A DNA stretch of 24,112 bases from a virus. The notes under the pieces were generated by a model. It did no database searches, was not told the DNA's origin, and was given only the letters and a program-made list of their open reading frames with translations. Of the stretch, positions 2-24,112 are shown piece by piece (positions within the stretch are counted from its first letter, which is position 1; every line of letters begins with the position of its first letter). The stretch lies in the IMG/VR virus record IMGVR_UViG_3300025602_000313. One strand, given 5' to 3'. Both the position numbers and the translations under genes were made by a program.

Positions 2-3000
2 TTTGATGATTCTGATGGTATTTGTTGTAATGGTGAGTTGGCCGGTGATTGTAGTCCTTCTACTGAAGATAACTGCCAAGATAATATTGATAATGACTTC
101 GATTCTTTAACAGATTGTCTCGACGAGGATTGTGATTGGATTTATTTATCCGAATCTAATGCTTATTGTAATTATGATGTTGAAGATTTATGTTACGATA
201 ACTTTGACAACGACGGAGATTCTCTTGTAGATTGTGATGATTCTGATTGTTCTGAAGACGCGGGTTGTGTTGAAGAAATTATTTCTCCTTATACCACTGA
301 AGATGTCCCTTACTCTACATCTGCTGTGAATGGTGAATTATATGATTTTGAGCAATTTGACTGGTTAGGTAATGACACTTTCGAAGACGTCAGTAACAAT
401 GATTCTGCGCTTGATTTGACTGCACTTTATGCGTCTGACAACTCTTCTCATTTGTTTTTCAGAATGACGCTTGCAAATCTATCAAACTTAACGCACGTTT
501 GCGACGGAGGCACATTTCCCACTACCTTTGCAGATTATACTGTGTATTTAGATCTGAATGGTTCTGGTGGTTGTGATCAGTTTTGCATGCCCGACAGCGA
601 CGCACTCATTATTTTGGGATTTAATGATACTGGCGTAGATTCCTGGGGCTTGGAAAATTGGAATGGTTCTGAGTTTGTTGAAAATGAGTCGGCAACACTT
701 CTTTACAACTTTTCATGTAATAATAATACAATAGATCTGGGAATTTCTTTGGACGATTTAGGATTTAACGAGAGCTACTTTGAATTTTCATTTATTACAT
801 CAGAAGAAGGTCCACCTATAGACGATACTAACTTATTTAATTACACGTTTGGAGAAGATCATCCTCTTGAACCTTTCTTCGATGATTTTACTGGAACCTT
901 TATTGATCTTAATCGTTACTCTGCAATGCCTATGGGTCTTTCTGTCGATCAAGACGATATGATAATAATGAACGGCTCTGGGGATAGTAGTATGGGCGTC
1001 TTTATTACTGAAGATGAAATAGATCATCACAGTTATTTTAGTGCAAGTGTGAATGTTAGTATTGAAAACTTTACTTCGATTGTTGGACAAAACGATACTT
1101 CGGCAAGATTGGTTGCATATGATCTTGGTGGTGACGCAATGCTTGCAGGTTGCTCGATTGACCTAAGAGACTACGGGCCTGTGTTGGCTGCTTCGAATGG
1201 CGAACAGAGCGAACAGGGATACGTCAGTACTCCTGTATCAGCAAGTTCTGGAGAACTTACTATGTACTTTGATAATTCTACTGGCATGACTTATTGTAGT
1301 TTTGATCATGAGACTCTTAGCGTAACTAATGGTTCTAACTTAGACACTGAATTAAGATTTTCTTTAATGCTAATGACGCAAAATGAGGGGAGTAATGGAG
1401 GGGGTGTTGAAGTCAATGCAACTTTTGATGATTTATACTTTAATTACACTACTGAAGCAGAACCTGAAGAAGCCCCTTCTTCATTTAATTTTAATTCATC
1501 ACACTTTTTAGGGTCCGATGTAAATGACACTTATGTAGGACTATTTGCTCATCACAATATAACTTCAGTTTACGGTGCGGATAACGGCACTCATTTTTTT
1601 GGAAGAATTGTTTTGAATGACACAGACTCTCTTGATGAATGTGGTGGGTCTTATCCATCTGGTTCTGAACAAACGGCTTATGGTTTTGTTTTTAACACAA
1701 CCCCTGGCGGATTAGATGATATGGGTGAAATTGGCACTGACTACCAAGTTACAATTTACATTAATGAAACAGCAACTCAAAAATCATTTAGTTTCTGGAA
1801 CGGTTCCGAGATGGAACCTACAAACCTGGGAGACGCAAATGCAACAATTGTTTGTGGTTATGGTATTGACTTTATGGTTAATCTAAGTCAAATTAATGCA
1901 TCAGAAGAAAATGGAATTGGATTAAACCCTTTTGTTTACAACTTTACACCCCTGATGGGGCCAATAGATGACTGGCCAGCTAATGATCCATTTTATGAAT
2001 ATCAATATAGTGATCAAGAAGATCAACCGTTAACAACATTTATGTTTCCGGATTTACTAGGTAATGATACTACTGACGACTCTGCAGTTTATGCATATCA
2101 AAACATAACTGCTGCTTACGCCAGAGATGATGGAAACCAATTCTTTACTCGAGTTGTCTTTGATGACCTATCTGATCTAGATGTGTGTGGTGGTCTGGAA
2201 CCACAAGGTTCTATTTATACTTCTGTTGGCTTAGAAATCAATACAACACCTGGTGGTGTCCCAGGTGGTCAAGGCTATGAAGGTGCTGAATTTGACATTA
2301 TTTTAGTGTTAAATGCTACCAGCACAAACGGACCTTATATAGGGGAGTGGAATGGATCTGATTGGGACTCTGGCAACTTTAATAACTCTCTTGATGATTA
2401 TGCAGTTCTTTGTGACATGAATGCAATTGATATTGCCTTCGATGTTAGGGGATTGAATGTTTCTCCAGGTACAACAATAGATTTAGTATACTATACTTTT
2501 AATGGCTCTGCGCCTTTAGATGATTGGCCAGGCAGTAATCCTATCTACACACAATACACAACAAAATCCCAGGAACAACCAGGTGGCCAAGGACTATACA
2601 TGTTCGGTCCTCAGCATTCGCTAGGTGAAGATTTACAAGACAACGCTACTCCTGCTGTTGCAAATATAACTGAAGTGCTGGTGGCTGATAATGGAACAAT
2701 GTTATTTACATCAATGAAATTTGATGATCTATCTGATTTATCTTATTGTGGTGGATCTTCATCTGCCTATTACGAGTGGGAACTTAACTATACTTCGGGA
2801 GGTTGCGACGGCAGCGAGGGTGTACTAGACGCAGATTATGATATCTATATTGAATTTAACGAAACGGGAGGAGTTTCAGATATTGGATTTTACATTTGGA
2901 ATGGCTCTGATTGGGAATACAATGCAAGCGCAGCGTATTATGTAAATTGTCCGAGTAATGTAATTGAACTAGGATTCAATCTAAGTAATACTAACTTTGC

Positions 3001-24112: not shown

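What the first reader, a model, noticed from the sequence alone, without database searches (positions are those of the whole stretch)
2..24112. A single >8,000-aa gene fills the window and is invisible to the supplied ORF track
Seen: frame +2 has no stop over 8,037 codons in an AT-rich sequence, and both termini lie outside the window, so the protein is longer than 8,037 aa. Known: this is the size class of the largest archaeal proteins (halomucin is about 9,100 aa). Inference: it is a giant surface filament or adhesin of about 30 modules, and this particular combination (DOMON-like, ConA-like, carboxypeptidase-regulatory/Ig, beta-helix/cap, Cys-rich core) does not match any characterised protein I recognise. 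I saw no clear catalytic motif, which fits a binding/structural role such as host attachment by a symbiotic archaeon.
Basis: partly seen in the sequence, partly recalled or inferred. Interest (0 to 1): 0.85.

Follow-up and report, generated by a model that had tools for sequence, protein, structure and literature searches.

The report
Giant sugar-coated archaeal surface protein
The window is the middle of one real 8,968-residue gene of a tiny Woesearchaeota (DPANN) archaeon; it encodes a secreted, heavily glycosylated fibre of sugar-binding modules, a kind of protein already known from such archaea but here very large and built mostly from modules with no sequence relatives.

Summary
Frame +2 has no stop in 8,037 codons, while the other five frames have 395-1,011. 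In the source genome the gene is 8,968 aa (about 975 kDa), and two assemblies recover it at that length.

The organism is a deep-branching Woesearchaeota archaeon (1.57 Mb). Ten ORFs of 2,500 aa or more take 9.2% of its coding capacity.

The protein has a Sec-type signal peptide and no membrane anchor. It carries 462 N-glycosylation sequons against 192 expected, and an AglB gene lies 8.4 kb upstream.

Modules found:
- acidic double-disulfide repeats
- five DOMON/CBM9-like sandwiches (fold match only, moderate)
- three L-type-lectin folds (clear)
- seven CarboxypepD_reg+CARDB pairs
- eight beta-helices, each closed by a Nup98/S59-type cap; two caps keep the His-Phe-Ser self-cleavage motif
- a C-terminal FN3 plus double-repeat cassette

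That cassette ends secreted proteins in 12 other genomes of the order, and in 7 of 8 the next gene encodes a membrane-anchored protein.

No full-length homologue was found. My best reading is a glycan-binding attachment fibre docked on a neighbouring anchor.

The kind is known (SPEARE, Nanobdella surface proteins), and this scan has noted similar DPANN giants on other DNA. I rate it a new variant of moderate interest.

The parts
2..24112 (+). Residues 75-8111 of one 8,968-aa ORF (C3:57215-84121)
   Evidence: No stop in 8,037 codons. Full ORF found in the genome. The same 8,968-aa gene is called in two assemblies.
2..340 (+). Cys-rich acidic N-terminal region with acidic double-disulfide repeats. 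The signal peptide lies just upstream of the window.
   Evidence: NCBIfam NF033662 scores 61.6 bits against a cut-off of 41. This region is 45-55% identical to the N-terminus of the 6,397-aa paralogue on C4. It is the only part that matches giants in other genomes of the order.
341..826 (+). B1, DOMON/CBM9-like beta-sandwich. Further copies at 1484-1990, 2033-2524, 2597-3064 and 9518-9991.
   Evidence: Five copies found by iterated HMM and aligned as A1. AlphaFold2 model pLDDT 66. VIA-wide: glucodextranase domain Z 9.0, Sas6 8.4, ethylbenzene dehydrogenase gamma 7.9, CBM9 6.4, DBH DOMON 6.3. No sequence homologue among 1.84 billion representatives.
869..1465 (+). C1, L-type (ConA-like) lectin fold. 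Further copies at 8261-8797 and 16154-16708.
   Evidence: Model pLDDT 83.7, pTM 0.84. Foldseek PDB: Emp46p/Emp47p carbohydrate-recognition domains, legume lectins, YwfG and SraP at E about 1e-7, probability 1.0. Only three outside sequence homologues were found.
3119..5089 (+). D1-D3, each a CarboxypepD_reg domain plus a CARDB-like Ig domain. Further copies: D4-D5 at 6827-8149, D6 at 8801-9439, D7 at 15416-16021.
   Evidence: PF13620 scores 155 bits in 6 stretches. Seven copies found by HMM. The second half of one copy hits CARDB PF07705 at E 8.9e-8.
5090..6814 (+). Beta-helix module 1 with an inserted domain and an S59-like cap
   Evidence: 40% identical over 594 aa to module 2, which passes Pfam Beta_helix. 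The cap hits PF04096 at E 0.0017.
6794..6802 (+). His-Phe-Ser motif of cap 1. Predicted self-cleavage between Phe2340 and Ser2341 of the full protein.
   Evidence: Motif VNVTHFSNY. It aligns with the Nup145N ...KVNHF end. Domains in other genomes of the order that pass the Pfam cut-off end in HF[ST].
9992..13576 (+). Unique central region. It holds a MopE-type motif (10139-10216), degenerate B-like modules, a Cys-dense core, an acidic double-disulfide repeat (11522-11611), an FN3-like stretch and a degenerate cap (12911-13276).
   Evidence: PF11617 at E 8.6e-10. NF033662. 32 Cys in full-protein residues 3501-4000. Otherwise no family hit.
13577..15412 (+). Beta-helix module 2 with an S59-like cap; second His-Phe-Ser motif at 15392-15400
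   Evidence: PF13229 scores 27.4 bits against a cut-off of 25.9. Motif VNVTHFSNY. Weak PF04096 match at C3:72782-72844.
16712..22225 (+). Beta-helix modules 3-6 (16712-17827, 17828-18961, 18962-20674, 20675-22225). Each ends in a cap with Ser in place of His (SFSNY or SFSGY).
   Evidence: Each module passes PF13229 and PF05048 on its own, at 50-88 bits. Caps aligned as A7.
22172..22453 (+). Ig-like spacer domain (degenerate B-type hit)
   Evidence: HMM hit at full-protein residues 7465-7558. 38% identical to a stretch of the C4 paralogue.
22472..24112 (+). Start of beta-helix module 7, which runs on past the window. Downstream lie module 8, an Ig domain, an FN3 domain and the double C-terminal repeat, ending at C3:84121.
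   Evidence: PF13229 and PF05048 pass for modules 7 and 8. C-terminal cassette.

Best explanation
This is an intact gene for a secreted, about 1-MDa, densely N-glycosylated surface fibre of a Woesearchaeota (DPANN) archaeon.

Proposed mechanism:
1. A Sec-type signal peptide exports the protein. No transmembrane segment follows, so the chain is wholly extracellular.
2. AglB, encoded 8.4 kb upstream, decorates many of the 462 sequons.
3. The chain presents arrays of glycan-binding-type modules (three L-type-lectin folds, five DOMON/CBM9-like sandwiches, seven CarboxypepD_reg+CARDB pairs) on rigid spacers made of eight right-handed beta-helices.
4. Two Nup98/S59-type caps that keep His-Phe-Ser probably cut the chain after Phe2340 and Phe5206. 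That would give three pieces that stay bound without a covalent link.
5. The conserved C-terminal cassette (FN3 plus two roughly 105-aa repeats) probably docks the fibre onto the membrane-anchored 1,958-aa protein encoded immediately downstream. The next gene, a 3,989-aa beta-helix/S8-peptidase protein, carries the same cassette.
6. The likely role is multivalent binding of surface glycans of a host cell or of particles.

Shown: gene integrity, export signal by inspection, domain families and folds, sequon excess, presence of AglB, position of the cassette and its conserved gene neighbour.

Inferred: actual glycosylation, self-cleavage, docking, and the ligand.
For: - Integrity and length.
- Only one hydrophobic segment, residues 1-27, with n-region Arg5, a 13-residue h-region and Ala-Ser-Ala before Thr27. 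There is no other hydrophobic 19-residue window (mean hydropathy above 1.6) in 8,968 aa. pI is at or below 4.05.
- Sequons: 462 observed against 192 expected from composition, 51.5 per 1,000 aa against a genome median of 3.4. Two STT3/AglB genes are present, one at C3:45695-48853.
- Domains.
- S59-type cap. PF04096 at E 0.0017 covering profile positions 25-147 of 148. Nup145N was the only PDB sequence hit of the cap profile. PF04096 passes its cut-off in 15 of 151 genomes of the order and in 0 of 14 control genomes. The profile of this protein's caps hits four of those domains at E 2e-11 to 7e-7, and all four end in HF[ST].
- Cassette. It is 81% identical at the end of the 3,989-aa neighbour. 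It is present in a Woesearchaeota S8 peptidase and in a LamG/beta-helix protein. It lies 0-30 residues from the stop in 12 of 12 other genomes checked.
- Anchor. In 7 of 8 genomes the next gene on the same strand has a signal peptide, a C-terminal TM helix and a basic tail, and six of these proteins are homologous to one another. The own 1,958-aa gene has a signal peptide, Ig repeats, a TM helix at about residue 1845 and a basic tail.
- Lineage: EF-2 best named hits are Woesearchaeota/Nanoarchaeota archaeon at up to 74% identity.
- Published analogues are read as attachment proteins (PMC6642349; bioRxiv 10.1101/2023.10.27.564410).
Against: - No ligand, host or expression data exist.
- The lectin and DOMON-like assignments are fold-level only. 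Sugar- or metal-binding residues were not examined, and the DOMON-like model is only moderate (pLDDT 66; top Z 9.0, where unrelated best hits typically reach Z 7-8).
- The own caps score below Pfam's curated cut-off (16-19 bits against 28.4), and six of eight lack the His.
- The own 1,958-aa neighbour shares only generic Ig repeats with the small anchors of other genomes. It does not share their conserved N-terminal domain.
- At 1.57 Mb and with a branched-chain amino-acid binding protein encoded nearby, the organism need not be an obligate symbiont.
- Beta-helices can be enzymes.
Confidence: 0.6

Rival explanations
1. Protective glycoprotein coat. The protein is mainly a mucin-like, water- and ion-holding or shielding glycocalyx component, as proposed for halomucin, rather than an adhesin. 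On this reading the modules serve only as scaffold for glycans.
For: Sequon density is extreme, at 51.5 per 1,000 aa. pI is at or below 4.05. There is no membrane anchor. Six other ORFs over 1,900 aa in this genome share sequon densities of 39-63 per 1,000 aa. Size is close to halomucin (PMC6642349).
Against: Lectin-type and CBM-type folds are repeated 3 and 5 times and kept distinct. The conserved docking cassette and the anchor-gene neighbour suggest ordered display rather than a loose capsule. No similarity to halomucin was tested.
Confidence: 0.15
2. Enzyme array. The eight beta-helices are polysaccharide lyases or hydrolases of the pectate-lyase or tailspike type. They would degrade a host's glycosylated envelope or environmental polysaccharide, and the binding modules would target them.
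For: PF13229 and PF05048 pass in 7 of 8 modules. The neighbouring 3,989-aa protein combines beta-helices with an S8 peptidase. Pectin-lyase-like surface proteins of Nanobdella aerobiophila were proposed to degrade the host wall (bioRxiv 10.1101/2023.10.27.564410). Bacterial surface proteins with ZU5-type autoprocessing often carry degradative enzymes (PMC3482391).
Against: No hit to any catalytic beta-helix family (pectate lyase, GH28, pectinesterase) at E up to 0.01. A beta-helix module gave no hit to any solved structure by sequence.
Confidence: 0.17
3. Artefact. The long frame results from chimeric assembly across repeated modules, or it is a decaying pseudogene.
For: The gene contains near-identical internal repeats that challenge short-read assemblers. 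Several assemblies carry shorter products of the gene, and one demonstrably breaks inside it at a contig end.
Against: P(no stop) is about 1e-255. Two assemblies give the same 8,968-aa call, with 16 mismatches in the 25.9 kb compared, which covers the last third of the gene and its downstream neighbours. Composition is even. The signal peptide at the start and the conserved cassette at the very end fit one complete gene.
Confidence: 0.03

Closest known systems
SPEARE proteins of Nanohaloarchaeota (Hamm et al. 2019, PMC6642349)
   Same: They are giant (up to 8,553 aa), mostly extracellular, multi-adhesion-domain proteins of DPANN archaea that include ConA-clan (laminin-G) modules. They are read as host-attachment devices, and they take several percent of a tiny genome.
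   Different: SPEARE proteins have a serine protease domain, a C-terminal transmembrane helix and a cytoplasmic restriction-endonuclease domain. None of these is present here. In this locus the S8 peptidase sits in a separate neighbouring gene.
Pectin-lyase-like and lectin-like N-glycosylated surface proteins of Nanobdella aerobiophila (bioRxiv 10.1101/2023.10.27.564410)
   Same: They combine a right-handed beta-helix with Ig-like folds, or carry a legume-lectin fold. They have dense N-glycosylation sites (36-52 in 908-1,320 aa), a signal peptide, and aglB in the genome.
   Different: Those proteins are 7-10 times smaller and carry one helix each. Here eight helices, three lectins and other modules are fused in one chain. 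No sequence similarity to them was tested.
Nup98/Nup145N autoproteolytic domain (MEROPS S59, Pfam PF04096) and the ZU5 superfamily in bacterial surface proteins (PMC3482391)
   Same: The cap is a beta-sandwich of about 120 aa that ends in His-Phe-Ser and sits in a large secreted adhesin-type protein. Zhang et al. describe ZU5-type autoprocessing in large bacterial surface proteins.
   Different: The copies here fall below Pfam's cut-off. They follow beta-helices as caps. Six of eight have lost the His. Cleavage is untested. I found no description of archaeal examples in the papers searched.
Halomucin of Haloquadratum walsbyi (about 9,000 aa)
   Same: It belongs to the same size class and is an extracellular, glycosylated archaeal giant.
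   Different: Its lineage and its proposed role (a protective capsule) are different. Sequence relationship was not tested here.
C-terminal sorting or docking domains such as the T9SS CTD, WxL domains and dockerins
   Same: Each is a lineage-wide domain at the extreme C-terminus of otherwise unrelated secreted proteins, with a conserved partner gene nearby.
   Different: The cassette matches no Pfam family. Single related domains in Bacteroidales, Verrucomicrobiota and Neomarinimicrobiota proteins are not C-terminal in two of the three cases, and one of these proteins has its own T9SS tail. Binding is not shown.

Membership tests
Right-handed beta-helix (Pfam PF13229 / NosD PF05048) | Score above the curated cut-off (25.9 and 23.6 bits) | tested here: met
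   Seven of eight modules pass when scanned alone, at 27-88 bits. Module 1 passes only by its 40% identity to module 2.
CarboxypepD_reg (PF13620) | Score above the 32.3-bit cut-off | tested here: met
   155 bits in 6 stretches. Seven copies found by own HMM.
Acidic double-disulfide repeat (NCBIfam NF033662) | Score above the 41-bit cut-off | tested here: met
   61.6 bits in 3 stretches.
L-type (legume/ConA-like) lectin | Jelly-roll fold matching solved L-type lectins | tested here: met
   Model pLDDT 83.7. 419 PDB matches at E 0.001 or better. Top matches are Emp46p/Emp47p and legume lectins at E about 1e-7, TM 0.55-0.65.
L-type (legume/ConA-like) lectin | Sequence-family membership and conserved Ca/Mn- and sugar-binding residues | tested here: not met
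   No Pfam, NCBIfam or PDB sequence hit. Binding residues were not examined.
DOMON / CBM9 / glucodextranase-C superfamily | Beta-sandwich fold matching members of the superfamily | tested here: inconclusive
   Model pLDDT 66. VIA-wide: 1ulv_A Z 9.0 (138 aligned, rmsd 3.6), 2ivf_C 7.9, 7b04_C 7.1, 1i82 6.4, 4zel 6.3, 1d7c 5.7. Foldseek best E 9.3e-3. No sequence hit.
Peptidase S59 (Nup98 autoproteolytic domain, PF04096) | Score above the 28.4-bit cut-off | tested here: not met
   18.9 bits (E 0.0017) for cap 1 scanned alone, and 16.1 bits in the genome scan.
Peptidase S59 (Nup98 autoproteolytic domain, PF04096) | Homology to domains that do pass the cut-off | tested here: met
   The cap profile A7 hits four above-cut-off domains from other genomes of the order at E 2e-11 to 7e-7, over nearly full length. 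Nup145N was the only PDB hit of the profile, at E 0.42.
Peptidase S59 (Nup98 autoproteolytic domain, PF04096) | Catalytic His-Phe-Ser at the C-terminal strand | tested here: met
   Present in 2 of 8 caps (full-protein residues 2339-2341 and 5205-5207). The other six have Ser or Gly in place of His.
Peptidase S59 (Nup98 autoproteolytic domain, PF04096) | Actual self-cleavage | not testable with these tools
   This needs expression of the domain with His and Ser mutants.
SPEARE proteins | Serine protease domain, C-terminal TM helix and cytoplasmic type III restriction-enzyme domain | tested here: not met
   No peptidase or nuclease family hit, and no TM segment after the signal peptide.
Halomucin | Sequence similarity to Haloquadratum halomucin | not tested

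The most novel reading that the evidence does not exclude
The locus encodes an undescribed archaeal surface-display system. An anchor-less megadalton fibre would be self-cut at two Nup98-type sites into three non-covalently joined pieces. It would be docked through a Woesearchaeales-wide C-terminal FN3 plus double-repeat cassette onto a co-encoded membrane stalk protein, which a protease-bearing second giant also uses. This would be a functional counterpart of dockerin/cohesin, WxL or T9SS-CTD systems, built from unrelated parts.
Probability: 0.3. Interest if true: 0.7.

Novelty: new variant of a known kind. Interest (0 to 1): 0.45.

Why it matters
DPANN archaea make up much of archaeal diversity, and the cultivated ones live attached to other cells, yet the molecules that mediate contact are almost unknown. 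This gene gives a complete, independently assembled example with testable parts:
- lectin-type modules for glycan arrays
- two candidate self-cleavage sites
- a conserved C-terminal cassette with a conserved anchor-gene neighbour

If the cassette-anchor pairing holds, it would explain how anchor-less giant proteins stay on these cells. It would also give a sequence handle for finding the surface proteome of a whole order. The size itself is not exceptional for the lineage: 8,968 aa, between SPEARE at 8,553 aa and halomucin at about 9,000 aa.

Tried and rejected
- Sequence searches gave nothing usable for several parts. This covers PDB profile or sequence searches for the DOMON-like, lectin-like and beta-helix modules and for the second half of the D module. 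It also covers Pfam at E up to 1 for the central region, the N-terminus and the cassette.
- A combined alignment of both module types (A4) was misaligned by MAFFT and dropped.
- The order-wide search with alignment A6 modelled all 1,240 columns, so S8-peptidase hits dominated it. I used only matches to model positions of about 870 and above, and I re-checked those by tblastn.
- The protein-atlas search was busy on five tries, and the fold search 'atlas' library was not installed.
The cassette, the caps, the helices and the central region therefore have no model.
- The acidic repeats as a conserved N-terminal head of giants in the order: rejected. In most other genomes they are internal.
- A full-length paralogue in the genome: rejected. 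Other giants share only single modules.
- Cluster look-ups of neighbouring proteins gave no organism names.
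Full report
**Observation.** Frame +2 of the window is open over all 8,037 codons. The other five frames carry 395-1,011 stops. From base composition the chance of no stop is about 1e-255. With closed ORFs only, the window shows nothing longer than a 185-aa antisense frame.

The window is G000:C3:57436-81547, in a genome of 1.57 Mb, four contigs, 36% GC and 96% estimated completeness. 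The frame begins at GTG C3:57215, preceded by GGGGGTGA, and ends at TGA C3:84121. That gives 8,968 aa, about 975 kDa.

Two ENA assemblies carry a called gene of exactly 8,968 aa followed by the same two genes. One is identical to C3. The other lies on a 302,723-bp contig and has 16 mismatches in the 25,877 bases compared. That stretch covers only the last 9,970 nt of this gene plus the downstream genes, so contiguity of the 5' two-thirds rests on the equal gene call and on other assemblies. Those carry 3,244-, 4,915- and 5,228-aa products in the same upstream context, one of them demonstrably cut by a contig end. An assembly artefact is therefore very unlikely, although I could not map reads.

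**Organism.** The small-subunit rRNA fragment is archaeal. EF-2 has its best named relatives in 'Candidatus Woesearchaeota archaeon' and 'Nanoarchaeota archaeon', at no more than 74% identity. Named homologues of two modules are also from Woesearchaeota. The genome stands alone in its family and genus, and the relatives drawn all belong to other families of the same order, with genomes of 0.6-2.7 Mb.

Ten ORFs of 2,500 aa or more take 9.2% of the coding residues, and 28 ORFs of 1,000 aa or more take 14.4%.

**Anatomy.**
- The only hydrophobic segment is at residues 1-27. It has Arg5, a 13-residue hydrophobic core and Ala-Ser-Ala before Thr27, which I read by inspection as a cleavable Sec signal. 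Nothing TM-like follows.
- The protein is very acidic (pI at or below 4.05; Lys+Arg 2.3%).
- It holds 462 Asn-X-Ser/Thr sequons against 192 expected from its composition. That is 51.5 per 1,000 aa, against a genome median of 3.4.
- Two STT3/AglB genes exist, one 8.4 kb upstream beside a glycerophosphotransferase-like gene.

Self-comparison and iterated HMMs delimit the modules:
- Acidic double-disulfide repeats: NF033662, 61.6 bits.
- Five copies of module B.
- Three copies of module C.
- Seven copies of module D. Each is a CarboxypepD_reg domain (PF13620, 155 bits) plus a second sandwich that in one copy hits CARDB at 8.9e-8.
- A unique Cys-rich centre with a MopE-type motif.
- Eight right-handed beta-helix modules. 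Seven pass Pfam Beta_helix and NosD when scanned alone, and the eighth is 40% identical to one that passes.
- A C-terminal FN3 domain plus a double repeat.

**The two orphan modules.** A phmmer search of B1+C1 against 1.84 billion representatives found only four proteins. These were the protein itself and three others that match module C alone.
- *Module C.* With a six-sequence alignment it folds confidently (pLDDT 83.7) as an L-type lectin jelly roll. Its matches are the Emp46p/Emp47p carbohydrate-recognition domains, legume lectins, YwfG and SraP, at E about 1e-7 and TM 0.55-0.65.
- *Module B.* It folds moderately (pLDDT 66). By exhaustive alignment it best matches a C-terminal domain of glucodextranase (Z 9.0), Sas6 (8.4), ethylbenzene dehydrogenase gamma (7.9), NxrC (7.1), CBM9 (6.4), the DOMON domain of dopamine beta-hydroxylase (6.3) and the cellobiose dehydrogenase cytochrome domain (5.7). 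These hits cohere as the DOMON/CBM9 group, but the scores lie only a little above background. I call this assignment moderate.

**Caps.** Each helix is followed by a domain of about 120 aa that ends in [H/S/G]-F-S-[N/G/T]-Y.
- Cap 1 hits Pfam PF04096 (Nup98-96 autopeptidase S59) over nearly the whole profile, at E 0.0017. That is below the curated cut-off.
- The cap profile's only PDB hit is Nup145N.
- PF04096 passes its cut-off in 15 of 151 genomes of this order, inside large ORFs, and in none of 14 control genomes. These tallies include the unpublished genomes G111 and G131. Without them the counts are 14 of 149 over the cut-off and 32 of 149 at E 0.001 or better. No locus I analysed comes from those two genomes.
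- The profile of this protein's caps hits four of the above-cut-off domains at 2e-11 to 7e-7, and each ends in His-Phe-Ser/Thr.

So the caps are divergent members of the Nup98/ZU5-type family. Two of them (window 6794-6802 and 15392-15400) keep His-Phe-Ser. Cleavage there would give pieces of about 2,314, 2,866 and 3,762 aa. ZU5-type autoprocessing of large bacterial surface proteins is described (PMC3482391). The one literature search I ran turned up no archaeal case.

**C-terminal cassette and neighbours.** The last 269 aa recur at 81% identity at the end of the 3,989-aa gene two genes downstream. That protein otherwise carries beta-helices and an S8 peptidase. The cassette also ends a Woesearchaeota S8 peptidase and a LamG/beta-helix protein.

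In 12 of 12 further genomes of the order that I checked, the cassette lies 0-30 residues from the stop, in ORFs of 377-5,266 aa. In 7 of 8 of these the next gene on the same strand encodes a protein with a signal peptide, a C-terminal TM helix and a basic tail. Six of those proteins are homologous to one another.

In the own locus, the gene between the two cassette-bearing giants (1,958 aa, with DUF11 and He_PIG Ig repeats) has the same topology, with a TM helix at about residue 1845. It shares only Ig repeats with the small anchors. Docking of the cassette on this neighbour is therefore a reasoned inference, not a result.

**Relatives.** Among proteins of 4,420-14,065 aa in 5.8 billion clusters, the best non-self hit covers 20-21% of the first 5,000 residues at 32-36% identity. 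Genomes of the order match only the acidic repeats, which lie inside other giant frames of up to 10,855 aa. Other giants in the same genome share single modules only. The architecture is unique, but the kind is common in the lineage.

**Comparison with the literature.**
- SPEARE proteins of Nanohaloarchaeota reach 8,553 aa and are read as attachment devices, but they have protease, TM and nuclease parts that are absent here (PMC6642349).
- Nanobdella aerobiophila has pectin-lyase-like and lectin-like N-glycosylated surface proteins of about 1,000 aa (bioRxiv 10.1101/2023.10.27.564410).
- A survey of huge proteins lists Laminin_G_3 and CarboxypepD_reg architectures as typical for archaea (PMC11573180).
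- Archaeal proteins over 10,000 aa are reported (bioRxiv 10.1101/2023.11.21.568195).
- This scan has already noted many giant glycosylated DPANN surface proteins on other DNA. They include one with an S59 domain, one with a tail next to an anchored partner, and a pair next to AglB. I treated these notes as leads and tested each point here.

**Verdict.** This is a real, complete giant gene. My best reading, at about 0.6, is a secreted, N-glycosylated, multivalent glycan-binding fibre, probably self-cleaved and docked on a neighbouring anchor, and used for attachment. The rivals are a protective glycoprotein coat (0.15), an array of polysaccharide-degrading helices (0.17) and an artefact (0.03). 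It is a new variant of a known kind, of moderate interest.

Noticed in passing
G000 whole genome (C1-C4); e.g. C4:8050-27243(-), C2:274262-289270(-), C1:491952-504074(-): Ten ORFs of 2,500 aa or more take 9.2% of coding residues in a 1.57-Mb genome. Seven ORFs share 39-63 N-glycosylation sequons per 1,000 aa against a genome median of 3.4. The 6,397-aa one shares the signal peptide and acidic-repeat N-terminus with this protein.
   Followed up: partly
G000:C3:45695-48853 (-), 8.4 kb upstream of the gene; L003/L027: An STT3/AglB oligosaccharyltransferase (1,052 aa) lies next to Glyphos_transf-like and geranylgeranyl-reductase genes, so envelope-biogenesis genes sit beside the giant cluster.
   Followed up: partly
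L047, L049, L050, L052 (genomes G168, G098, G066, G166): After the cassette gene and the anchor gene comes a third conserved gene (508-641 aa, 56-76 sequons per 1,000 aa). It ends in a shared motif...YW(K/R)...P.G...CNGT(I/V)VF, which suggests a three-gene surface operon in the order.
   Followed up: no
G002:C1:27161-27448 and G040:C97:13805-14965: Stop-to-stop frames of 10,855 and 9,175 aa occur in other genomes of the order. If they are real genes, they exceed halomucin, often cited as the largest archaeal protein.
   Followed up: no
L014/L015 (ENA ERZ27249449 k141_1704855; JGI 3300014208): One of the only three outside homologues of the lectin-like module (P0017, 1,448 aa) sits on a 90-kb contig among many tiny ORFs and a ChaB-domain gene. 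This may be a virus or mobile element.
   Followed up: no
L023, L025, L026 (Bacteroidales, Verrucomicrobiota and Neomarinimicrobiota MAGs): Single domains 25-33% identical to the C-terminal repeat occur inside bacterial secreted proteins and are not C-terminal in two of the three. One of these proteins ends in its own T9SS sorting domain. The repeat is thus an unnamed, widely scattered domain family.
   Followed up: partly
G000:C2:382356-382685 (+) and C3:100403-100558 (+): Further sub-threshold PF04096 (S59-like) matches lie in the 3,756-aa and 3,990-aa giants of the same genome.
   Followed up: no
L004:3153-9026 (1,958-aa neighbour), residues about 1690-1850: A run of seven Thr, six Gly and three Ser, then a small domain of about 110 aa and an acidic Pro/Thr/Glu linker, precede the TM helix. 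This looks like a flexible hinge in the candidate anchor.
   Followed up: no
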